Part shown: positions 1 to 14,446 of the stretch, one piece after another
Layout: each line of letters starts with the position of its first letter
Numbering within the stretch: position 1 is the stretch's first letter
IMG/VR virus record: IMGVR_UViG_2667527666_000002
Coordinates: 1-17,684 of that record
Length of the DNA: 17,684 nt
Strand: one strand, 5' to 3'
Origin: a virus
Taxonomy: Duplodnaviria > Heunggongvirae > Uroviricota > Caudoviricetes
Position numbers and translations under genes: made by a program
The notes under the pieces: model-generated
What the model was told of the DNA's origin: nothing
Seen by the model: the letters and a program-made list of their open reading frames with translations, nothing else
Database searches by the model: none

Positions 1-1254
1 ATGCTGGAACAAATGGGCATTGCCGCGAAGCAAGCCTCGTATAAATTAGCGCAACTCTCCAGCCGCGAAAAAAATCGCGTGCTGGAAAAAATCGCCGATG
101 AACTGGAAGCACAAAGCGAAATCATCCTCAACGCTAACGCCCAGGATGTTGCTGACGCGCGAGCCAATGGCCTTAGCGAAGCGATGCTTGACCGTCTGGC
201 ACTGACGCCCGCACGGCTGAAAGGCATTGCCGACGATGTACGTCAGGTGTGCAACCTCGCCGATCCGGTGGGGCAGGTAATCGATGGCGGCGTACTGGAC
301 AGCGGCCTGCGTCTTGAGCGTCGTCGCGTACCGCTGGGGGTTATTGGCGTGATTTATGAAGCGCGCCCGAACGTGACGGTTGATGTCGCTTCGCTGTGCC
401 TGAAAACCGGTAATGCGGTGATCCTGCGCGGTGGCAAAGAAACGTGTCGCACTAACGCTGCAACGGTGGCGGTGATTCAGGACGCCCTGAAATCCTGCGG
501 CTTACCGGCGGGTGCCGTGCAGGCGATTGATAATCCTGACCGTGCGCTGGTCAGTGAAATGCTGCGTATGGATAAATACATCGACATGCTGATCCCGCGT
601 GGTGGCGCTGGTTTGCATAAACTGTGCCGTGAACAGTCGACAATCCCGGTGATCACAGGTGGTATAGGCGTATGCCATATTTACGTTGATGAAAGTGTAG
701 AGATCGCTGAAGCATTAAAAGTGATCGTCAACGCGAAAACTCAGCGTCCGAGCACATGTAATACGGTTGAAACGTTGCTGGTGAATAAAAACATCGCCGA
801 TAGCTTCCTGCCCGCATTAAGCAAACAAATGGCGGAAAGCGGCGTGACATTACACGCAGATGCAGCTGCACTGGCGCAGTTGCAGGCAGGCCCTGCGAAG
901 GTGGTTGCTGTTAAAGCCGAAGAGTATGACGATGAGTTTCTGTCATTAGATTTGAACGTCAAAATCGTCAGCGATCTTGACGATGCCATCGCCCATATTC
1001 GTGAACACGGCACACAACACTCCGATGCGATCCTGACCCGCGATATGCGCAACGCCCAGCGTTTTGTTAACGAAGTGGATTCGTCCGCTGTTTACGTTAA
1101 CGCCTCTACGCGTTTTACCGACGGCGGCCAGTTTGGTCTGGGTGCGGAAGTGGCGGTAAGCACACAAAAACTCCACGCGCGTGGCCCAATGGGGCTGGAA
1201 GCACTGACCACTTACAAGTGGATCGGCATTGGTGATTACACCATTCGTGCGTAA
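1..1254 (+). CDS. proA: Gamma-glutamyl phosphate reductase (glutamate-5-semialdehyde dehydrogenase), complete 417 aa
   Basis: Full-length ORF from ATG at 1 to TAA at 1252-1254; translation matches the ProA/aldehyde dehydrogenase family over its whole length; position immediately upstream of tRNA-Thr matches the proBA-thrW arrangement of E. coli. Confidence 0.95.
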
Positions 1255-1260
1255 ATAAAA

Positions 1261-1320
1261 CCGGGTGATGCAAAAGTAGCCATTTGATTCACAAGGCCAT
1301 TGACGCATCGCCCGGTTAGT
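1261..1320 (+). terminator. Candidate proA terminator: 11-bp stem (1261-1271 with 1305-1315, one G-U pair) around a long loop, followed by TTAGTTTT
   Basis: Inverted repeat ccgggtgatgc / gcatcgcccgg seen directly, T-rich tail 1316-1323. The loop is long (33 nt) and may contain the thrW promoter, so the call is weak. Confidence 0.25.
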
Positions 1321-1368
1321 TTTAACCTTGTCCACCGTGATTCACGTTCGTGAACATGTCCTTTCAGG

Positions 1369-1444
1369 GCCGATATAGCTCAGTTGGTAGAGCAGCGCAT
1401 TCGTAATGCGAAGGTCGTAGGTTCGACTCCTATTATCGGCACCA
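1369..1444 (+). tRNA. thrW: tRNA-Thr, anticodon CGU, with encoded CCA end
   Basis: 76-nt cloverleaf-compatible sequence GCCGATATAGCTCAGTTGGTAGAGC...GGTTCGACTCCTATTATCGGCACCA; anticodon loop TT-CGT-AA; T-arm GGTTCGA present. Confidence 0.93.
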
Positions 1445-1458
1445 TTTAAATCAATAAG

Positions 1459-2596
1459 TTACACATCATTAGTACCTTCCTTATTTTTTGACTGGGACAA
1501 ATTTGGGACCGATGGGTTCAGGATCGAGTCTATTTGCCGTGCGTGTTCGGTAAGGTGATTAGGTGCAAGGTGAGCATATCGACGAACCATTTCGATAGAC
1601 TCCCAGCCTCCCATTTCCTGTAACACTGACAACGGGACTCCGGCTTGAACCAGCCAGCTTGCCCAGGTGTGTCTCAAGTCGTGAAATCTGAAATCATCAA
1701 TACCAGCCCGTCTCAGCGCCGCTTTCCAGGCTGTGTTTGCGTCATACCGCATCTTCCTGACCGTTGGCGCTTTCCTTGTACACAAATACCCAACGGTGAT
1801 GATTCCCGATTTGTTTTTTCAATACGCGACATGCAGTATCATTCAGCGCAACGCCAATTGCGCGGTTTGATTTACTCTCTTCCGGGTTTATCCATGCCAC
1901 CCGGCGCTGCATGTCTATTTGTTGCCATTCAAGGTTGATGATGTTCGAGCGTCTTAAGCCTGTTGCCAGTGCAAATTCAACAACAGACTTTAATGGCTCC
2001 GGACATTCATCAATCAGCCTTTGTGCTTCATGGGGCTCCAGCCAGCGGATCCGTTTATTCTTTGGTTGAGGCACTTTAATAATTGGTGCCTTATCCAGCA
2101 TTTTCCATTCACGCTCTGCGGCTCTTAGTAGGGCCTTTATAAATGAAAGATGCGTAGCCTTTGTTGCAACGGACGCTGGTTTTGGCATGTATTCTGGAAC
2201 AGGTTTCCCTTTTTTTCTGCATGCTTCTGCCCTGAGTTTCCAGTTTTCCTCATGACGCCGGTTCGTCATTTTCTGCATTGCTGAATAAATTTTTGATTCA
2301 GTAATGTCTCTTAGTTGCATTCCTGCGAAATGTTGAAGCCAGAATCCGATCCGGCTTTTGTCATCGTCCAGTGATTTTTTATGTGCTTTCTCTTCGAGCC
2401 ACCTGATACACGCCTCCTCGAACGTCATATCAGGTATTTCACCAAGTTTGCTGACCCGCCATGCTTCAGCCTTTAGCTTGTCATGGAGCTCTGTCGCCTG
2501 CCTTTTGTCCTTTGTTCCAAGAGACTGTTTAAATCTTTTACCGTTCGGCAATGTGAAACTGGCGTACCATATTTCACCTCTGCGGAAGAGTGACAT
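1459..2596 (-). pseudogene. int: Phage tyrosine integrase, reading frame broken near 1742-1800 (N-terminal 284-aa frame plus C-terminal catalytic fragment in another frame)
   Basis: ORF 1742-2596 begins [14 protein letters not shown] with RBS GAGGAAA upstream of the ATG at 2596; the C-terminal ORF 1459-1785 carries the HxxR box ([11 protein letters not shown]) and the Tyr-containing VRRYAHL motif but lies in a different frame. The two frames overlap over 1742-1785, consistent with a 1-nt indel near aaggaaagcgcc. Confidence 0.7.
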
Positions 2597-6099: not shown

Positions 6100-6792
6100 T
6101 TAATTGTGTCGCTTAAGGGTTTGTGACTGGCTGATTAAGACCTTTCCAAAGACCATAAACCGGTGTTCATTTTCGCTGGTAATTCCCCATTCACGGTAAA
6201 TCTGGTTATCAGAAATCACCAGTAGTTTGTCAGGTATCATTTGCAGTCGTTTGACATAAATTTTATCATCAAAACCAAATACATAGATACCATCTCCATC
6301 AAACTGATTGATACTGACATCAACGAAGATGAGATCTCCTGGCTCAATGGTTGGACACATACTGTCCCCACGAACGTTGATAACTTTAATGTGATTGGCT
6401 GGCCGTCCGCCAAACATCGATACAGCATTATCAGTTCTGTATTCAATGGCATGAATCACATCAATGACATCACCGCCCTGGATAAGGCCATTTCCCGCAC
6501 TGGCACTGACATCCAGCATTTCAATACGGAATACATCCTTCACCTGCGCAACATCCTCACTAATACTGTTTTTACATACAGTATTACTTTTGACGTCTGA
6601 GGTAAAGAGATCAGCAATATCAACACCTAAGCTCCTGGCAATATTACTCAGGGCTTGTTCAGTGAATTGTTTCTGCTTACCTGTTTCCAGGCGTGAGATA
6701 TTCGCCGCATCCACTCCTATTGCTTCAGCGAGATCGGCGATTTTCATGTTCTTCGCCTGGCGAAGTTGTCTGACTCGGTTTCCTATGTTCAT
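6100..6792 (-). CDS. cI: CI-like prophage repressor (N-terminal XRE-type HTH, C-terminal S24/LexA-type self-cleaving peptidase), 230 aa
   Basis: N-terminal HTH (IADLAEAIGVDAANISRLETG); Ala-Gly cleavage-site candidate (SASAGNG); catalytic Ser in GDSM and Lys in YVKRL; divergent from a Cro-like gene. Confidence 0.9.
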   Translation of the reverse strand: MNIGNRVRQLRQAKNMKIADLAEAIGVDAANISRLETGKQKQFTEQALSNIARSLGVDIADLFTSDVKSNTVCKNSISEDVAQVKDVFRIEMLDVSASAGNGLIQGGDVIDVIHAIEYRTDNAVSMFGGRPANHIKVINVRGDSMCPTIEPGDLIFVDVSINQFDGDGIYVFGFDDKIYVKRLQMIPDKLLVISDNQIYREWGITSENEHRFMVFGKVLISQSQTLKRHN

Positions 6793-8035: not shown

Positions 8036-8055
8036 AGGTCGGTCATGAGCACTAA
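7834..8055 (+). CDS. Hypothetical small protein, C-terminal frame (...[39 protein letters not shown]...); true start unclear (a TTG near 7876 follows GAAGGAG)
   Basis: Protein-like frame whose stop at 8053-8055 overlaps the next gene's start at 8045 by 11 nt, as expected for a genuine operon member. Confidence 0.3.
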
Positions 8056-8386
8056 ATTAACCGGCTATGTATGGGATGGTTGCGCTGCGTCAGGCATGAA
8101 ATTATCCAGCGTGGCAATTATGGCCCGCCTGGCTGATTTCAGTAATGACGAAGGTGTGTGCTGGCCATCAATTGAAACTATTGCCCGTCAGATTGGCGCG
8201 GGGATGAGTACCGTCAGAACGGCTATCGCACGGCTGGAAGCAGAAGGCTGGTTAACGCGTAAGGCGCGTCGCCAGGGTAACCGCAATGCGTCGAATGTTT
8301 ATCAGCTTAACGTTGCGAAGCTTCAGGCAGCGGCATTTTCTCAACTGTCAGATTCTGACCCGTCAAAATCTGACGCATCAAAATGA
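8045..8386 (+). pseudogene. Replication-initiator (O-like / winged-HTH N-terminal domain) gene, 3'-truncated by the IS629 insertion
   Basis: N-terminal HTH-type domain ([13 protein letters not shown]...SIETIARQIGAGMSTVRTAIARLEAEGWL); the ORF ends on the TGA formed by the first three bases of the IS inverted repeat (8384-8386); no C-terminal domain. Confidence 0.6.
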
Positions 8387-8425: not shown

Positions 8426-9316
8426 TCAGGCTGCCAGATCATCGTTTCCGATGGAAGCATAATAAGCTTTTTCTGCTTCTGCCGGAGGAGTATGGCCCAG
8501 CCTTTCCAGCAATCGTCGATTGTTATACCAGTCCACCCACGTGAGTGTGGCCAGTTCCACTTCTGCACGGTTTTTCCAGCTCTTACGGTGTATTACCTCC
8601 GCTTTGTAAAGACCATTGATGCTCTCCGCCATCGCGTTGTCATACGAGTCGCCTGTACTTCCTGTTGATGCCAGTAATCCGGCTTCCTTAAGCCGCTGTG
8701 TGTAGGCCAGCGATACATACTGAGAACCTTTATCACTGTGATGGACCGTGCCGGACGGTCGACGGGCCCATAACGCCTGCTCCAGTGCATCCAGCACGAA
8801 TGTCGTTTCCATGGACGATGAGACCCGCCACCCCACGATGTATCCGGCAAACACATCAATGATGAACGCCACATAGACGAAGCCCCGCCATGTGCTGACG
8901 TAAGTAAAATCAGCCACCCACAGCTGGTCAGGTCGTTCTGCCACGAACTGACGGTTTACGCGGTCGCCTGCGGCAACGGCTTTCCGGCTGATGGTCGTAC
9001 GGACCTTTTTACCCCGGAGAACACCGGCAAGTCCCATAACCGCCATGAGACGTGCCACAGTGCATCTGGCCACTCTGATACCTTCCCGTAACAACTGACG
9101 CCAGACTTTACGCACACCGTATACCTTGTGATTTTCATCGTATACGCGCTGTATCTCTTTCTTCAGCCAGTCATCGCGCTGCGCACGGGCACTGCGTTTA
9201 TCCGGATGATGTCGCTGTTGCTGACAGTGGTAATACGTTGACGGGGCAATATGCAGTTCGCTGCATAGCGGTCCGACCCCGTACTGCTCACGCAGCTTAT
9301 CCAGCAGTGGCATCAT
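8426..9316 (-). CDS. IS629-like transposase OrfB (DDE/integrase catalytic domain), 296 aa
   Basis: Translation [29 protein letters not shown]... with a DDE-type core (WVADFTYV ... HSDKGSQY ... [10 protein letters not shown]). Confidence 0.9.
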
Positions 9317-9639
9317 TTTTTCCAGAGGCGGTCGAACTCCGCCTTCGCAAAATAAGCGGAAGCCTGGCGAAGGATATCGTTACTGCGGCGCAGTTCACGA
9401 TTTTCACGTTCCAGCTCTTTCAGACGCTGACGTTCAGCGGTGGTGAGCCCTCCATCACCGCCCCCGGTATCCCGCTCATGCTGGCGAACCCAGACACGCA
9501 GAGTCTCCGGCGTACAGCCAATCTTTGGAGCAATGGAACAAATTGTCGCCCATTGTGAGTCATATTCGCTCTGACTTTCCAGAACCATACGGACTGCCCG
9601 TTGACGGACTTCGGGGGAAAAACGAGTATTTTTAGTCAT
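9313..9639 (-). CDS. IS629-like transposase OrfA (HTH), 108 aa
   Basis: Translation [42 protein letters not shown]...; identical to the orfA of the second copy at 17358-17684. Confidence 0.9.
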
Positions 9640-9693: not shown

Positions 9694-10238
9694 ATTAACA
9701 CCCTGTTTGGCCCGTTTGTTCTGGATCTGTTCACTGACGGTGATAACGCCAAATGTGCTGCGTATTACACGGCGGAAGACAACGCGCTGGCGCATGACTG
9801 GTCAGAACGCCTTGCGGAGCTTAAAGGTGCTGCCTTTGGTAATCCCCCATACAGCCGCGCCAGTCAGCATGAGGGGCAATACATCACCGGCATGCGTTAC
9901 ATCATGAAGCATGCCAGTGCCATGCGTGATAAAGGCGGGCGCTATGTTTTCCTGATCAAAGCTGCCACCAGCAAGTGTGGTGGCCGGAAGATGCAGATCA
10001 TATTGCTTTTATTCGCGGGCGTATTGGTTTTGAACTGCCTGCCTGGTTTATCCCGAAGGATGAGAAGCAGGTGCCGACAGGCGCTTTCTTCGCTGGTGCT
10101 ATTGCTGTTTTCGACAAGACCTGGAAGGGACCGGCAATCAGCTACATCGGGCGCGATGAACTTGAGGCATGTGGTGAGGCCTTTCTGGCGCAGGTTCGCC
10201 AGCAGGCAGAAAAACTGGTCAGGGAGATGGCGGCATGA
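9694..10238 (+). pseudogene. Phage Dam-type DNA N6-adenine methyltransferase remnant: 5'-truncated at the IS boundary and frameshifted near 9960-9980
   Basis: Frame 1 immediately after the IS reads INTLFGPFVLD...FGNPPYS (NPPY catalytic motif); the C-terminal part (VWWPEDADHIAFIRGRIGF...) continues in another frame (ORF 9975-10238), whose stop overlaps the next gene's ATG. Confidence 0.6.
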
Positions 10239-10561
10239 CGACGTTAACTCAATGCCAGCAGCAGGTGCTGGATATGCTGATTTCTTATCAGAAAGAACGT
10301 GGCTTCCCGCCAACCAATCAGGAGGTGGCAACCATGCTGGGATACCGTTCAGTGAATGCAGCGGTGGAGCATCTTCGCGCACTGGAGAAAAAAGGCGTCA
10401 TCACGATAAAGCGTGGCGTGGCCCGGGGCATCACGCTTCATACCGCGGTGAAGGACGACGACAGCGAGGCGGTCGGGATTATCCGCTCACTGCTTGCCGG
10501 TGAGGAAAACGCAAGGCTGCGTGCAGCCCACTGGTTACATGAGAGGGGCCTGAAAGTATGA
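10235..10561 (+). CDS. LexA N-terminal DNA-binding-domain-like protein, 108 aa, without peptidase domain
   Basis: MTTLTQCQQQVLDMLISYQKERGFPPTNQEVATMLGYRSVNAAVEHLRALEKKGVI resembles the LexA winged-HTH domain; no S24 domain follows; start/stop coupled to neighbours. Confidence 0.6.
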   Translation: MTTLTQCQQQVLDMLISYQKERGFPPTNQEVATMLGYRSVNAAVEHLRALEKKGVITIKRGVARGITLHTAVKDDDSEAVGIIRSLLAGEENARLRAAHWLHERGLKV

Positions 10562-10947
10562 AGCTGATCCTGCCTTTTCCGCCCAGCGTGAACACGTACT
10601 GGCGACACCCCAACAAAGGGGCGTTTGCTGGTAAGAGCCTGATAAGCGCGGCGGGGCGAAAATTCCAGAGCGCGGCGTGCGCAGCAATAGTTGAGCAGTT
10701 ACGTCGTCTGCCGAAACCAACGTCGGCACCTGCTTCAGTGGAGATCGTGTTGTTTCCTCCGGATAACAGGATCCGCGATCTGGACAACTATAACAAGGCG
10801 CTGTTTGACGCCCTGACCCACGCGGGGGTGTGGGAAGACGACAGTCAGGTGAAAAGAATGCTGGTGGAGTGGGGACCGGTTATCCCGGAAGGGAAGGTCG
10901 AGATCACTATCAGTAAGTACGAGAAAACGGCGGGTGCAGCTGCCTGA
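10558..10947 (+). CDS. rusA: RusA-family Holliday-junction resolvase, 129 aa
   Basis: Conserved RusA features: LPFPPSVNTYWRH near the N-terminus and RDLDNYNKALFDALT acidic catalytic region. Confidence 0.85.
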   Translation: MKLILPFPPSVNTYWRHPNKGAFAGKSLISAAGRKFQSAACAAIVEQLRRLPKPTSAPASVEIVLFPPDNRIRDLDNYNKALFDALTHAGVWEDDSQVKRMLVEWGPVIPEGKVEITISKYEKTAGAAA

Positions 10948-10966: not shown

Positions 10967-11776
10967 ATGAATAATCTGATGGTCATTGATGGTATTGAAG
11001 TTCGTCGTGATGCTTATGGGCGTTACAGCCTGAACGATCTGCATCGCGCAGCAGTAGCATCTGGTGCAAATGCCAGAACCAAGGAGCCAGGAAAGTTTCT
11101 TTCCAGCCAACAAACTGTTGAGCTTGTTCATGAATTAACCAACACCCAGAATTTGGGTGTTGACCCGGTGAGCGTGATTCATGGGGGAAATGAACGGGGA
11201 ACGTATGTCTGTAAGGAACTGGTGTATGCCTATGCAATGTGGATCAGCCCGTCATTCCATCTGAAGGTGATCCGTACTTTCGATATGGTAACCAGCGCGC
11301 CGGAAAAGTTATCCGGACAGGCTGCTGACAAGATGCAGGCTGGCGTGATTCTGCTGGACTTTATGCGCCGGGAGTTAAATCTGTCTAACTCATCTGTGCT
11401 TGGGGCCTGTCAGAAACTCCAGGAGGCTGTTGGCTTACCGAATCTGGCACCGCGCTATGCCATTGATGCACCTGCTGACGCGCCTGATGGCTCAAGCCGC
11501 CCCACGCTGTCGCTGAGTGCACTGCTGAAGCAGTATGGTATCCGCCTGACGGCTAATCAGGCATATCACCAGATGGCGAAGCTGGGGATCGTTGAACAAC
11601 GCGAACGATACAGCCGTACCGCGATTAACAACATCAAAAAATTCTGGTCGCTGACAGCGAAAGGCTGCATGTTCGGCAAGAACATCACCAGTCCCGCAAA
11701 TCCGCGCGAGACGCAGCCGCATTTCTTCGAATCCCGATTCCCTGAGCTGTTAAAGCTGCTCGATACCGTTCATTGA
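10967..11776 (+). CDS. KilA-N domain antirepressor-like protein, 269 aa
   Basis: N-terminal KilA-N/APSES-type domain (IDGIEVRRDAYGRYSLNDL ... GTYVCKELVYAYAMWISPSFHLKV); RBS AGGAG upstream of the ATG at 10967. Confidence 0.75.
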   Translation: MNNLMVIDGIEVRRDAYGRYSLNDLHRAAVASGANARTKEPGKFLSSQQTVELVHELTNTQNLGVDPVSVIHGGNERGTYVCKELVYAYAMWISPSFHLKVIRTFDMVTSAPEKLSGQAADKMQAGVILLDFMRRELNLSNSSVLGACQKLQEAVGLPNLAPRYAIDAPADAPDGSSRPTLSLSALLKQYGIRLTANQAYHQMAKLGIVEQRERYSRTAINNIKKFWSLTAKGCMFGKNITSPANPRETQPHFFESRFPELLKLLDTVH

Positions 11777-11777
11777 G

Positions 11778-12773
11778 GTGACCGTGAGAGCACTACTGAC
11801 CCCTGAAATTGCCCCGCGTATGGGGATCGTATTGTTCAGGCCAGGTTCAGAGCTGATGCCCCTGTTTATGCAGGGGCGTGTCCTGCTGGAGCCTGAGCCG
11901 GAACGTTATTCATCTTTTGCCAGTGGTGCCGTTCCGGCTGCATCACAACCGCTGGCGGATGATCCTGCCGTTCGGGCCGTGTTCCGCAATGAGGCAGTGA
12001 TCCGTCGTGCTGGTGGCGTGGAATGTCTTGAAAGCTGGTTACTTCGTGAAAAAGGCTGCCAGTGGCCTCATTCCGACTGGCACAGCGAGAACATGACCAC
12101 AATGCGACACGCGCCGGGCGCAATCCGTCTGTGCTGGCACTGCGATAACCAACTGCGCGATCAGTTCACGGAACGGCTGGAATCAATGGCAACGGATAAC
12201 TGTGCCCGCTGGGTGTTGTCTGTTGTGCGTCGGGATCTCGGTTTTGATGACAGTCACGTTGTGACAATGCCGGAACTGTGCTGGTGGCTGATTCGTAATG
12301 ATCTGGCGGATGCCTTACCGGAAAGTGCAGCCCGTAAGGCACTGAGATTACCGAAGCCTGTTGTGCCGTCTGTCACCCGGGAAAGTGACCTGGTGCCTTC
12401 GGTTCCTGCCACCAGCATCATCCAGGATAAAGCGAAAAAGGTGCTGGCGCTGAAAGTGGATCCGGAGTCGCCGGACTCTTTTATGTTACGCCCAAAACGT
12501 CGCCGCTGGGTTAATGAAAAGTACACGCGATGGGTTAAGACGCAGCCGTGCGCATGTTGTGGAAAACCTGCTGATGATCCCCACCACCTGATAGGCCACG
12601 GTCAGGGTGGAATGGGGACAAAAGCGCATGACCTCTTTGTGTTGCCTTTGTGCAGAAAGCATCACGACGAGCTGCATGCGGATAATGTGGCATTCGAAGA
12701 GAAGTATGGCTCCCAGCTGGAGCTGATATTTCGTTTTATCGATCGTGCGCTGACGATTGGTGTGCTGGCCTGA
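11778..12773 (+). CDS. DUF968-like nin-region protein, 331 aa, with C-terminal Cys/His (HNH-like) cluster
   Basis: C-terminal motif [43 protein letters not shown]; exact start uncertain (GTG at 11778 or 11784). Confidence 0.65.
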
Positions 12774-12790: not shown

Positions 12791-13174
12791 ATGCGTGATA
12801 TTCAGATGGTTCTTGAGCGTTGGGGAGCGTGGGCGGCTAATAATCATGAAGATGTGACCTGGTCGTCCATTGCCGCCGGTTTTAAGGGATTAATTCCTTC
12901 AAAAGTAAAATCTCGCCCGCAATGTTGTGACGATGACGCGATGATCATTTGCGGGTGCATGGCCCGTCTGAAAAAGAACAACAGCGATTTGCACGATTTA
13001 TTAGTAGATTATTATGTAGTCGGTATGACATTCATGTCACTGGCAGGTAAGCATTGCTGCTCTGATGGTTATATCGGGAAAAGGTTACAAAAAGCTGAGG
13101 GCATAATTGAAGGGATGTTAATGGCATTAGATATCTGGTTAGAGATGGATATCGTTGTTAATAACTCTAATTAA
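12791..13174 (+). CDS. Q: Late-gene antitermination protein Q (short Q family), 127 aa
   Basis: Start at the ATG at 12791 with GGAG 8 nt upstream (the ORF track's 12776 start is a TTG); last gene of the nin-like block, in the position Q occupies upstream of the lysis cassette. Confidence 0.7.
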
Positions 13175-13363: not shown

Positions 13364-14446
13364 TTAGAACTGGTAAACCAGACCTACAGCAACGATGTCA
13401 TCAGTATCAATACCAGCTGTTTTGGTAAACTTACTATCGTCAATTAAGTTGATTTTGTAATCAACAAAAGTGGACATGTTTTTATTAAAGTAGTAAGTAG
13501 CACCGACATCGACATACTTGACTAAGTCTCGGTCACCATGAACACCAAGGTCTTTACCTTTTGACTGAAGGTAAGCAACAGATGGGCGCAGACCGAAGTC
13601 AAACTGATATTGTGCTACTGCTTCAAAGTTTTGTGCTTTGTTTGCAATATGGTTATTACCAAAAACGGTCATATTCTGAGTTTCAGAATATGTGGTAGCC
13701 AGATAGATATTGTTCGCATCATATTTCAGGCCTGCAGCCCATACTTCCGCATTTTTGCCGGAGGCATTGAATTTGCTCTTACCATAGGCGACCTGACCGT
13801 CAGTGCGATCTGATTTAGCATAGGTTGCACCCACGCCGAATCCTTCATACTCATAAGTAGTGGAGAAACCGAAACCATCACCATTGGCTTCAGTTACGTC
13901 AGTGCGGTCATTTTTACCCTGATACTGAGCAGCAAAGTTCAGGCCATCGACCAGACCAAAGAAGTCGTTGTTACGATAAGTTGCAACACCAGTAGTGCGA
14001 CCAGTCATGAACACATCTGTTTGGGTCCAGGTATCACCACCGAATTCTGGCAGGACGTCAGTCCACGCACCGATGTCGTATGCTACACCGTAGTTACGGC
14101 CGTAATCGATTGAGCCGTAATCACCAAATTTCAGGCCTGCAAATGCAAGACGGGTTTTGTCTTTGGAAGAACCTTGAGATTCAGCGCGGTTGCCTTTGAA
14201 TTCATATTCCCACTGACCGAAACCAGTCAGTTGATCGTTGATTTGGGTTTCACCTTTGAAGCCAAGACGGGCATAAGTAGTATCACCATCATCTGCATCA
14301 TTAGAGGAGAAGTAGTGCTTAGCATTAACTTTCCCGTACAGATCCAGCTTGTTACTGTCTTTATTATAAATTTCAGCTGCCTGAGCAGACATCGCCATCA
14401 GTACTGATGCAGCTACAGCAGAAATTGCCACTGTTAATTTTTTCAT
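13364..14446 (-). CDS. General-diffusion outer-membrane porin, OmpC/NmpC/Lc family, 360 aa precursor
   Basis: Signal peptide ending AQA-AE; mature N-terminus [17 protein letters not shown] typical of OmpC-family porins; C-terminal ...VGLVYQF beta-barrel signature; opposite strand to flanking phage late genes. Confidence 0.92.

What the first reader, a model, noticed from the sequence alone, without database searches (positions are those of the whole stretch)
10967..12773. KilA-N antirepressor paired with a DUF968 protein bearing an HNH-like Cys/His cluster
The two genes are separated by one nucleotide and sit between rusA and Q. The DUF968-like C-terminus (CACCGK...HHLIGHG...[10 protein letters not shown]) has the spacing of a zinc-binding HNH-type nuclease motif, and function is unknown for this family. 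Possible roles include an anti-repressor plus nuclease pair acting on a competing prophage or a defence function.
Basis: partly seen in the sequence, partly recalled or inferred. Interest (0 to 1): 0.45.

Follow-up and report, generated by a model that had tools for sequence, protein, structure and literature searches.

The report
Known prophage KilA-N and HNH-nuclease genes
These are two ordinary, very common early genes of lambda-like prophages: a KilA-N DNA-binding protein and a YdfU/DUF968 protein whose zinc-held HNH nuclease domain was already classified in the literature. They are not an obligatory pair.

Summary
Window 10967-11776 encodes a 269-aa KilA-N protein. Window 11784-12773 (or 11778) encodes a 329-aa DUF968 protein carrying CACCGK…HH…[10 protein letters not shown], between rusA and Q.

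None of this is new:
- Jablonska et al. 2017 placed DUF968 and DUF1364 (YdfU, YbcO) in the His-Me finger superfamily and noted RusA, Q and antirepressor neighbours.
- PHROGs and RefSeq phage records already call the protein an HNH endonuclease.
- The module occurs at 95% identity or more in about 2,100 of 5,426 complete E. coli genomes.

The "pair" reading is weak. Across 78 species-level loci, the gene upstream of DUF968 is KilA-N type in 11, Rha+ANT in 30 and RusA itself in 11. The gene downstream is a Q antiterminator in 77.

Most likely this is a Ref/Gp16-like recombination nuclease of the nin region, with an exchangeable accessory DNA-binding gene beside it. I found no evidence for antirepressor or defence roles. 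The one addition here is a second, probably non-catalytic zinc site in the N-terminal domain.

The parts
10967..11776 (+). Gene for a 269-aa KilA-N domain protein. The KilA-N DNA-binding domain covers residues 7-109 (nt 10985-11293). Residues ~115-269 form a C-terminal domain of unknown fold.
   Evidence: ORF. Pfam KilA-N E 2.4e-22. PHROG 129 'transcriptional regulator', full length, E 2e-124. RefSeq names it 'KilA-N domain-containing protein'. It is 100% identical to a protein of phage Ayreon, and the C-terminal part (129-265) matches the C-termini of proteins annotated as Ant in Pseudomonas and Ruminococcus phages. No Pfam ANT hit for the C-terminal part.
11774..11786 (+). Gene junction: KilA-N stop TGA (11774-11776), GAGG Shine-Dalgarno (11775-11778), first GTG (11778) and the likely true start GTG (11784).
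   Evidence: Sequence. The RefSeq start corresponds to 11784. All homologues begin with M-R/K-x-L-L.
11784..12773 (+). Gene for a 329-aa DUF968/YdfU-family protein.
   Evidence: Pfam DUF968 E 2.4e-80. PHROG 96 'HNH endonuclease', full length, E 4e-176. 1,688 homologues in the word-indexed search and 3,130 in the exhaustive search.
11784..12353 (+). N-terminal domain (residues 1-190): small beta sheet, helices, then a beta-hairpin (104-117) and helix (118-124). It carries a conserved second zinc site: C92, H/C100, C117, C/H120, followed by D121. It is probably a non-catalytic, degenerate beta-beta-alpha finger.
12354..12518 (+). Linker predicted to be disordered (residues ~191-245). It ends in the conserved basic motif [10 protein letters not shown] (233-242).
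   Evidence: pLDDT below 50 for residues 192-244. F233, M234, L235, P237, K238, R239-R241 and W242 are invariant in alignment A1, and K238 is invariant in the diverse alignment A2.
12519..12773 (+). C-terminal His-Me finger (HNH) nuclease domain. The Cys/His cluster lies at nt 12549-12677 (C256, C259, H267, H268, D283, C290, H293, H294, H298).
10558..10947 (+). Context: RusA Holliday-junction resolvase gene. It is the recurrent partner of DUF968 across loci.
   Evidence: Pfam RusA E 6e-15. RusA lies within 2.5 kb on the same strand in 49 of 78 loci, plus 2 with a second RusA type. It directly overlaps DUF968 in 11 of 78.
12791..13174 (+). Context: Q (QuuD-type) late antiterminator gene, directly downstream.
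   Evidence: Pfam Phage_antitermQ E 5e-53. RefSeq names it quuD. A Q-type gene of one of five families follows DUF968 in 77 of 78 loci.

Best explanation
The two genes are the last delayed-early (nin-region) genes of a lambdoid prophage. They are co-transcribed with the LexA-domain gene and rusA, just upstream of Q.

**The DUF968/YdfU protein** is a two-domain DNA enzyme:
- The C-terminal domain is an intact His-Me finger (HNH) nuclease. One zinc site (C256, C259, C290, H293) holds the fold. H267/H268 sit at the end of strand 1 and would act as general base. D283, H294 and H298 form the catalytic-metal site.
- A conserved basic stretch (RPKRRRW) at the end of a disordered linker precedes this domain.
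- The N-terminal domain has its own conserved zinc site and is probably non-catalytic. It would recognise DNA structure or bind a partner protein.

By analogy with its nearest characterised relatives, the protein most likely nicks or cuts recombination or replication intermediates such as D-loops, RecA-coated DNA or branched DNA. Those relatives are P1 Ref, which cuts only RecA-bound DNA, and staphylococcal phage Gp16, a nickase that binds RecA and is stimulated by it. The constant company of RusA points the same way. The role would be to promote recombination-dependent phage replication and genome exchange, as lambda Rap/NinG does at the same map position.

**The KilA-N protein** is a DNA-binding accessory protein. 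It occupies an exchangeable slot between rusA and DUF968, and DUF968 does not need it.

**Shown versus inferred.** Shown here: gene identity, fold, residue conservation, genomic context and ubiquity. Inferred: nuclease activity, substrate, RecA dependence and biological role.
For: - **Residues:** zinc and catalytic residues are conserved in 49-65 of 65 diverse representatives.
- **Characterised relatives:**
  - The motif CxxC-x8-H…CxxHHxxxH matches Gp16 residue for residue (C145/C148/H157/C181/H184/H185/H189 in PMC12817073). BLASTP against the Gp16 homologue phiMR11 orf15 gives E 2e-11.
  - Gp16 is a nickase that binds RecA and is stimulated by it.
  - Ref is a RecA-dependent HNH enzyme whose basic, unstructured N-terminal segment is needed for DNA binding (PMC4330346). 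Ref shares HH…LPLCRxHH with the window protein.
- **Literature:** DUF968 and DUF1364 form His-Me group 7, with a proposed recombination/repair role like NinG and the RecA-dependent nucleases (PMC5714182).
- **Context:** RusA is nearby in 51 of 78 loci and directly overlapping in 11. A Q gene follows in 77 of 78. In Chris1 the order is RusA then YdfU, and in BZS1 it is O, DUF968, RusA, Q.
- **KilA-N is not obligatory:** the upstream gene is Rha+ANT in 30 loci, KilA-N in 11, RusA in 11 and something else in the rest.
- **Expression:** no internal promoter, terminator or LexA box was found, which fits one delayed-early operon.
Against: - No experiment exists on any enterobacterial DUF968 protein.
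- The homologue P1 PdcB is dispensable and of unknown function (PMC10695390 and PMC10067587).
- The PdcB clade has lost the catalytic histidines while keeping the fold, so catalysis is not universal in the family.
- The window protein is not a Pfam member of the Ref family (no RecA_dep_nuc hit).
- It lacks the NinB-like N-domain that Gp16 needs to bind RecA. RecA dependence therefore rests only on analogy.
- A profile search of PDB sequences finds nothing, so the link to Ref and YbcO rests on fold comparison and one pairwise BLAST.
- The full-length model has only moderate confidence (mean pLDDT 66).
- Where KilA-N is present, its C-terminal domain diverges in step with the DUF968 N-domain. 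Physical linkage explains this, but it is also what an interacting pair would show.
Confidence: 0.6

Rival explanations
1. The two proteins form a functional pair. The upstream 'antirepressor-like' protein (KilA-N here; Rha+ANT or ORF6N+ANT elsewhere) is a DNA-targeting or regulatory subunit for the DUF968 nuclease. The pair would act on a competing prophage, a satellite or the host chromosome, which is the first reader's idea of an anti-prophage or defence function.
For: - An antirepressor-like gene sits directly upstream of DUF968 in 43 of 78 loci (30 Rha+ANT, 11 KilA-N, 2 ORF6N+ANT). In 3 more loci an ORF6N-type gene lies one small ORF further upstream. The start/stop arrangement suggests translational coupling: a 4-nt overlap for Rha+ANT and -1 to +10 nt for KilA-N.
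- Within the KilA-N subset, identity of the KilA-N C-domain tracks identity of the DUF968 N-domain from 99/99% down to 57/47%, while the KilA-N domain itself is mosaic.
- In E. coli, about 90% of full-length copies of this DUF968 allele carry this KilA-N gene (2,116 of 2,363).
- The KilA-N protein gives a weak local PADLOC hit (PDC-S22, E 1.6e-5).
Against: - DUF968 occurs without any such neighbour in many loci: RusA directly upstream in 11, DNA methyltransferases in 7, rem-like in 5, and in P1, Chris1, VaK and K-12 Qin.
- All upstream gene types occur within one DUF968 identity tier (65-70%), so the slot is swapped freely.
- Co-divergence and linkage are expected for adjacent DNA whatever the function.
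- DUF968 gives no PADLOC hit.
- The genes have no promoter of their own, so they would be silent in a lysogen.
- The rare KilA-N::DUF968 fusions are in-frame deletions that remove parts of both proteins, not domain fusions.
Confidence: 0.12
2. DUF968 is mainly a non-catalytic zinc-finger protein that binds DNA or another protein. It would have a regulatory role tied to the switch to late transcription, and the nuclease motif would be vestigial or secondary.
For: - DUF968 lies immediately before a Q antiterminator of five unrelated families in 77 of 78 loci.
- In the non-lambdoid phage P1, pdcB lies immediately before lpa, the late promoter activator.
- The PdcB clade keeps the zinc cysteines and the whole architecture but has lost the catalytic histidines.
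- The N-terminal domain is a conserved zinc module with no catalytic histidine.
- In Gp16 the zinc-site mutants abolished the phenotype completely, whereas the catalytic-centre mutants relieved it only partly or, for H157A, not at all (PMC12817073).
Against: - The catalytic residues H267, H268, D283, H294 and H298 are kept in 56-65 of 65 diverse representatives. That argues for selection on catalysis.
- Being the last nin gene before Q is also true of lambda's recombination nuclease Rap/NinG (PMC4118853). The position is more simply a module boundary.
- Because the Q families differ, a specific Q-DUF968 interaction is unlikely.
Confidence: 0.12
3. DUF968 is a packaging HNH endonuclease that assists the terminase in cutting cos or pac, like HK97 gp74.
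For: HNH proteins are widespread terminase partners (cited in PMC4330346 and PMC12817073). P1 pdcB lies two genes upstream of pacA and pacB.
Against: - In the 99.9% identical YJ6 prophage, the terminase genes lie about 5 kb downstream, beyond Q, a porin gene and the lysis cassette.
- Packaging HNH genes abut the terminase genes.
- PdcB lacks the catalytic histidines and is non-essential, whereas pacA and pacB are essential.
Confidence: 0.03

Closest known systems
E. coli K-12 YdfU (Qin prophage) and Pfam DUF968 / His-Me finger group 7 of Jablonska et al. 2017 (PMC5714182)
   Same: Same Pfam family (E 2.4e-80) and same PHROG 96. The C-terminal His-Me finger is the same and lies in the same prophage context, next to RusA, Q and antirepressor-like genes.
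   Different: K-12 ydfU matches only the C-terminal third of the gene at about 84% nucleotide identity, so the N-terminal half is a different allele. Qin YdfU-type loci have a small rem-like gene upstream instead of KilA-N.
Phage P1 Ref (PDB 3plw), a RecA-dependent HNH endonuclease (Pfam RecA_dep_nuc)
   Different: The window protein is not a Pfam member of RecA_dep_nuc. Ref has no structured N-terminal domain, whereas DUF968 has a 190-residue zinc-containing one. RecA dependence has not been tested for DUF968.
Staphylococcus phage PhiNM1 Gp16 and phiMR11 orf15 (Pfam HNHc_6), a nickase that binds RecA and is stimulated by it (PMC12817073)
   Same: The C-domains are homologous (BLASTP E 2e-11, 41% identity; HNHc_6 hit at its cut-off) and the zinc and catalytic residues have the same spacing. 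Both are early phage genes located among replication and recombination genes.
   Different: Gp16 has a NinB/Orf-like N-domain that is required for binding RecA. The window protein's N-domain shows no NinB similarity. The host phylum and the gene neighbourhood also differ.
DLP12 YbcO (PDB 3g27, Pfam DUF1364)
   Different: YbcO is a stand-alone domain of about 80-95 residues, without the N-terminal domain or the linker.
Phage P1 PdcB
   Same: A full-length homologue with both domains: 26% identity, tblastn E 6e-32, same PHROG 96 and same Pfam DUF968. It also lies directly before the late-gene activator.
   Different: The catalytic histidines (the HH pair and the HHxxxH motif) are lost, while CxxC…CxxC is kept. 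It sits in a non-lambdoid phage with no RusA or KilA-N neighbour. It is non-essential.
Lambda Rap (NinG)
   Same: A phage recombination endonuclease of the His-Me superfamily, encoded late in the nin region just before Q (PMC4118853 and PMC5714182).
   Different: A different Pfam family (NinG); the window protein gives no NinG hit. The resemblance is one of position and presumed role, not of family membership.
Phage P1 KilA and the KilA-N domain proteins
   Same: The N-terminal KilA-N domain (Pfam E 2.4e-22). P1 kilA matches residues 4-105 at 40% identity.
   Different: The C-terminal domains differ. The window protein has no ANT/KilAC domain. No host-killing or antirepressor activity has been shown for it.

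Membership tests
KilA-N domain proteins (Pfam PF04383) | Sequence match to the KilA-N domain model above the gathering score | tested here: met
   79.2 bits against a cut-off of 23.8, E 2.4e-22, covering model positions 5-105 of 107.
Phage antirepressors (P22 Ant / KilAC-ANT type) | ANT/KilAC domain (PF03374) or clear homology to a proven antirepressor | tested here: not met
   No Pfam hit for the C-terminal part (residues 127-269 scanned), even at E up to 1. hhalign against the ANT domains of the Rha+ANT neighbours gives probability 0.2% on shallow alignments. The only link is to C-termini of proteins merely annotated 'Ant'.
Phage antirepressors (P22 Ant / KilAC-ANT type) | Expression independent of the main repressor, for example from its own LexA-controlled or immI-type promoter | tested here: not met
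   Only 19 nt separate rusA from this gene. Promoter-like sites do not exceed the shuffled expectation, and there is no LexA box near the gene. The consensus scans are crude.
Phage antirepressors (P22 Ant / KilAC-ANT type) | Binds and inactivates a phage repressor | not testable with these tools
   This needs biochemistry or genetics. The resident repressor is of the self-cleaving HTH+S24 type, so this prophage does not need an antirepressor for SOS induction.
DUF968 / YdfU family (Pfam PF06147; PHROG 96) | Sequence match to the family models | tested here: met
   Pfam 269 bits against a cut-off of 27.8, covering the whole model (positions 2-171 of 171). PHROG 96 matched over its full length, E 4e-176.
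His-Me finger (HNH) nucleases | Beta-beta-alpha-metal fold | tested here: met
His-Me finger (HNH) nucleases | Catalytic His at the end of strand 1, and metal-binding His/Asn/Asp residues in the helix | tested here: met
   H267 60/65, H268 61/65, D283 65/65, H294 58/65 and H298 56/65 among diverse representatives. These correspond to Gp16 H157, H185 and H189.
His-Me finger (HNH) nucleases | Structural zinc site CxxC…CxxH/C (the zinc-finger subclass) | tested here: met
   C256 60/65, C259 49/65, C290 54/65, and position 293 is H in 27 and C in 21 of 65.
His-Me finger (HNH) nucleases | Metal-dependent nuclease activity | not testable with these tools
   I found no published assay for an enterobacterial DUF968 protein.
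Ref-type RecA-dependent nucleases (Pfam PF16786) | Match to the RecA_dep_nuc model | tested here: not met
   P1 Ref itself scores E 2.3e-51. The window protein gives no hit at E up to 0.01. One 71%-identical homologue (P0087) has a precomputed PF16786 hit.
Ref-type RecA-dependent nucleases (Pfam PF16786) | Cleavage only of RecA-bound DNA | not testable with these tools
   This needs in vitro assays with RecA, ATP and D-loop substrates.
HNHc_6 / Gp16-type Orf-HNH proteins (Pfam PF16784) | HNHc_6 match together with a NinB/Orf-like N-terminal domain | tested here: not met
Terminase-associated packaging HNH proteins | Gene adjacent to the terminase genes or the cos site | tested here: not met
   In the 99.9% identical YJ6 prophage, the terminase small subunit starts about 5 kb downstream, after Q, a porin gene and the lysis genes.
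Known anti-phage defence systems (PADLOC) | Match to a defence-system protein model | tested here: not met
   DUF968 gives no hit. The KilA-N protein gives only a local hit of 22 bits to candidate PDC-S22, within the KilA-N domain.

The most novel reading that the evidence does not exclude
Enterobacterial DUF968 proteins may be tandem His-Me finger proteins. A degenerate, zinc-binding N-terminal copy would serve as an adaptor, and a Ref/Gp16-like C-terminal nickase would do the cutting.

The adaptor domain might dock the C-terminal domain of whichever 'antirepressor-like' DNA-binding protein is encoded just upstream (KilA-N, Rha+ANT or ORF6N+ANT). That would make a modular nuclease with exchangeable targeting subunits. 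It could be aimed at RecA-bound or specific DNA during the early-to-late switch, for instance to nick host or rival-prophage DNA while a LexA-DNA-binding-domain mimic encoded two genes upstream damps the SOS response.

The evidence does not exclude this, but linkage and mosaicism explain the same patterns.
Probability: 0.1. Interest if true: 0.5.

Novelty: already known. Interest (0 to 1): 0.15.

Why it matters
As it stands the finding matters little. The genes are among the commonest prophage genes in E. coli and Shigella. The HNH assignment, the family and even the neighbourhood are published.

The residual value is practical. YdfU/DUF968 is still an unassayed y-ome family present in most E. 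coli genomes and in many Stx2 phages. Two characterised relatives, Ref and Gp16, now make a concrete hypothesis cheap to test: a recombination nuclease stimulated by RecA that works alongside RusA.

If that hypothesis were confirmed, it would add a nuclease to the lambdoid recombination toolkit. It might also bear on prophage recombination and on Stx-phage replication.

Tried and rejected
1. **Sequence searches of PDB.** Neither the single protein nor a 29-sequence profile found a relative. Only fold comparison did.
2. **NCBIfam.** No hit for either protein.
3. **Is the KilA-N C-domain a divergent ANT/KilAC domain?** Pfam at E up to 1 and hhalign were both negative, though the alignments were shallow. 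The idea is rejected for lack of evidence, not disproved.
4. **Is the DUF968 N-domain a duplicate of the HNH domain?** The results are suggestive but not significant, so I report it only as a possibility:
   - hhalign gives P 0.007 and probability 5%, with the motifs in register.
5. **N-domain against BFVD viral structures.** Nothing significant. The afdb50 library was unavailable.
6. **First search for related loci attempt.** The diverse alignment had no stretch conserved enough. It was redone with a narrower alignment.
7. **Promoter, terminator and LexA-box scans** between rusA and Q found nothing above chance.
8. **Rosetta-stone fusions of KilA-N and DUF968.** These turned out to be rare in-frame deletions in decaying prophages.
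9. **Packaging-HNH and defence-system readings.** Both were rejected on gene context and on the PADLOC result.
10. **Literature on ydfU and pdcB.** It yielded only 'unknown function' or 'non-essential', plus a GWAS association most simply explained by linkage to stx2.
Full report
**1. What is there**

The window is a defective lambdoid prophage.
- To the left lie an aldehyde-dehydrogenase-family gene, tRNA-Thr(CGT) at 1369-1444 and a truncated integrase.
- The repressor at 6100-6792 has HTH and S24 peptidase domains.
- An IS3-family element at 8426-9639 carries the ALIL frameshift pseudoknot. It cuts the replication gene and leaves only the C-terminal piece of a Dam methylase.

A tightly packed run of + strand genes follows: a LexA-DNA-binding-domain protein (10235-10561), RusA (10558-10947), the KilA-N protein (10967-11776), the DUF968 protein (11784-12773) and Q (12791-13174). 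After these come a porin gene on the other strand and the lysis genes.

The only correction is the DUF968 start. RefSeq and every homologue begin at the second in-frame GTG (11784, MRALL…), behind a GAGG that overlaps the KilA-N stop codon. The gap is therefore 7 nt rather than 1.

**2. How common it is**

- The 1.8-kb module is found in 3,719 of 5,426 complete E. coli genomes.
- 2,116 genomes hold at least 80% of it, nearly all at 95% identity or more.
- It also occurs in 74 sequenced phages, including cdtI, mEp460, SfII, Ayreon and many Stx2 phages. Protein searches additionally find SfV.
- Some RefSeq phage records already label the two genes "transcriptional regulator" and "HNH endonuclease".
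- The best match, E. coli YJ6 (99.9%), carries the module in a prophage at a different tRNA site. It is a mobile mosaic block.

**3. The HNH question**

It is conserved.

An exhaustive search found 3,130 relatives. Among 65 cluster representatives that cover the region and are less than 90% identical to the window protein:

| Residue | Conserved in |
|---|---|
| C256 | 60/65 |
| C259 | 49/65 |
| H267 | 60/65 |
| H268 | 61/65 |
| D283 | 65/65 |
| C290 | 54/65 |
| Position 293 | His in 27, Cys in 21 |
| H294 | 58/65 |
| H298 | 56/65 |

An AlphaFold model places H267/H268 at the end of a strand and C290-H298 on the following helix. Its best PDB matches are all HNH nucleases:
- Cap5
- IscB
- McrA

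At sequence level the domain aligns with P1 Ref (HH…LPLCRxHH, E 6e-4). It aligns much better with phiMR11 orf15 (E 2e-11, 41% identity).

phiMR11 orf15 carries the same motif as phage PhiNM1 Gp16, offset by one residue. A 2026 paper showed that Gp16 is a nickase, binds RecA and is stimulated by it, and depends on the CxxC…CxxH zinc site (PMC12817073).

So the HNH reading is right. It is also not new:
- Jablonska et al. 2017 placed DUF968 together with DUF1364 (YbcO, PDB 3g27) in His-Me finger group 7.
- They named YdfU as a member and listed RusA, Q and antirepressor as typical neighbours.
- They proposed a recombination/repair role like NinG and the RecA-dependent nucleases (PMC5714182).
- Curtis et al. 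2014 had already described the zinc-finger HNH motif in DUF968 proteins (PMC4118853).
- PHROG 96, which the protein matches end to end, is named HNH endonuclease.

**4. What the tools add**

*The N-terminal half has its own zinc site.*
- Residues 1-190 have no Pfam model, yet they fold confidently (pLDDT 89.6).
- The conserved site is C92 (60/63), position 100 (H 34, C 25), C117 (63/63) and position 120 (H 38, C 25), followed by D121 (54/63). It sits on a beta-hairpin plus helix.
- There is no conserved histidine where the catalytic one would be.
- A profile-profile comparison of the two domains aligns the motifs in register, but only at P 0.007.
- A degenerate second His-Me finger is therefore plausible but unproven.

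*Other features of the protein.*
- The two domains are joined by a linker predicted to be disordered. It ends in the conserved [10 protein letters not shown] motif. This recalls the basic, unstructured DNA-binding segment of Ref.
- P1 PdcB is a full-length homologue. Its clade has lost the catalytic histidines but kept the cysteines. PdcB is dispensable.

**5. Is it a pair?**

I fetched 80 loci from different species, mostly Enterobacterales, and classified the genes on either side of DUF968.

| Gene directly upstream of DUF968 (78 informative loci) | Loci |
|---|---|
| Rha+ANT protein | 30 |
| KilA-N type, as here | 11 |
| RusA, overlapping DUF968 | 11 |
| Second RusA type | 2 |
| ORF6N+ANT | 2 |
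| Others: DNA methyltransferases, LexA-domain proteins, a rem-like small protein and singletons | 22 |

- Downstream, a Q-type antiterminator of one of five different families follows in 77 of 78 loci.
- RusA lies nearby in 51 of 78.
- Individual phages show RusA then YdfU (Chris1), O-DUF968-RusA-Q (Serratia BZS1), and no KilA-N neighbour in Vibrio VaK or in P1.
- All upstream types occur within the same DUF968 identity tier.

DUF968 therefore does not need the KilA-N protein. The constant features are RusA and the position before Q.

Two observations keep a weaker form of the pair idea alive:
- An "antirepressor-like" modular DNA-binding gene fills the upstream slot in more than half of the loci.
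- In the 11 KilA-N loci, the KilA-N protein's C-domain diverges in step with the DUF968 N-domain, while its KilA-N domain is mosaic.

Physical linkage explains both.

**6. Is it an antirepressor or a defence gene?**

- The KilA-N protein has the KilA-N domain but no ANT/KilAC domain.
- It has no promoter or LexA box of its own.
- It sits in a prophage whose repressor is of the self-cleaving type.
- PHROGs calls it a transcriptional regulator.
- DUF968 matches nothing in PADLOC. The KilA-N protein gives only a weak local hit.
- Neither role is supported, and neither can be excluded without experiments.

**7. Most likely mechanism**

*Shown:* an intact, conserved, zinc-stabilised HNH active site; a fold closest to Ref; homology to Gp16; early-operon context with RusA.

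*Inferred:* the protein nicks or cuts recombination or replication intermediates. It may be stimulated by RecA. It would promote recombination-dependent replication and genome exchange, with RusA resolving the junctions that result. In lambda, Rap/NinG occupies the equivalent position.

I put about 0.6 on this overall picture, and lower (about 0.3) on RecA dependence specifically. The reason is that the Gp16 N-domain needed for RecA binding is absent here.

The rivals are a targeting-subunit-plus-nuclease pair (0.12), a mainly non-catalytic regulatory zinc-finger protein linked to the late switch (0.12) and a packaging HNH (0.03).

**8. Verdict**

Interest is low.

What remains open is the biochemical function of a very widespread y-ome family. 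Ref and Gp16 now give a specific, testable model for it.

Noticed in passing
window 10235-10561 (+): A 108-aa protein that consists only of a LexA DNA-binding domain (Pfam LexA_DNA_bind, E 3e-19) and has no S24 peptidase domain. Its stop codon overlaps the rusA start. The same gene precedes rusA in 29 of 80 DUF968 loci. It could be an uncleavable LexA mimic that damps the SOS response during lytic growth.
   Followed up: partly
window 11784-12353 (DUF968 residues 1-190): The N-terminal domain has no Pfam model and no PDB or BFVD structural relative. It carries a conserved second zinc site (C92, H/C100, C117, C/H120) on a beta-hairpin plus helix. It may be a degenerate copy of the HNH finger.
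   Followed up: yes
L006-L085 (80 genome loci); L002 (P1): DUF968 is followed at once by a Q-type antiterminator of five different families in 77 of 78 loci. In P1 the homologue pdcB directly precedes lpa, the late promoter activator. This may be a module boundary or a functional link to the late switch.
   Followed up: partly
L012, L014, L016, L017 and 26 other loci, about 700 nt upstream of DUF968: The slot between rusA and DUF968 is filled by interchangeable modular DNA-binding genes: Rha+ANT in 30 loci, KilA-N type in 11 and ORF6N+ANT in 2. In the Rha+ANT case the stop and start overlap by 4 nt.
   Followed up: yes
L002:4001-5044 (P1 pdcB) and relatives P0190, P0192, P0252: The PdcB clade has lost the HNH catalytic histidines but retains CxxC…CxxC and the whole two-domain architecture. 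It is probably a catalytically dead relative.
   Followed up: partly
window 8426-9639 (-), with flanks 8045-8386 and 9975-10238: An IS3-family insertion sequence (orfA, orfB and the ALIL frameshift pseudoknot at 9242-9358). It truncates the phage replication (HTH_36) gene and leaves only the C-terminal fragment of the Dam methylase, so the prophage is defective.
   Followed up: partly
window 1-2596: An aldehyde-dehydrogenase-family gene (417 aa), tRNA-Thr(CGT) at 1369-1444 and a truncated integrase. This prophage sits at a tRNA-Thr site. The 99.9% identical KilA-N/DUF968 module of E. coli YJ6 lies in a prophage next to tRNA-Arg and intD, so the module moves between prophages.
   Followed up: partly
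window 13364-14446 (-): An OmpC/NmpC-like porin gene (Porin_1, E 2e-151) lies on the opposite strand between Q and the lysis genes. It looks like a lysogenic-conversion moron.
   Followed up: no
window 6566-6581, inside the repressor gene 6100-6792 (-): This is the only CTGT-N8-ACAG (LexA-box-like) match in the window. It lies inside the HTH+S24 repressor gene. Chance expectation is 0.21 per window, so it is probably fortuitous.
   Followed up: no
proteins P0045, P0064, P0014, P0060 (other E. coli assemblies): Rare KilA-N::DUF968 fusion proteins. They are in-frame deletions that join truncated parts of the two genes, which indicates prophage decay rather than evolved fusions.
   Followed up: yes
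L006, L007, L019, L023, L024, L030, L066, L074, L075, L080: Identity of the KilA-N protein's C-domain tracks identity of the DUF968 N-domain, from 99/99% down to 57/47%. The KilA-N domain itself is mosaic (for example 70% where the C-domain is 99%). A recombination breakpoint therefore lies inside the KilA-N gene.
   Followed up: partly
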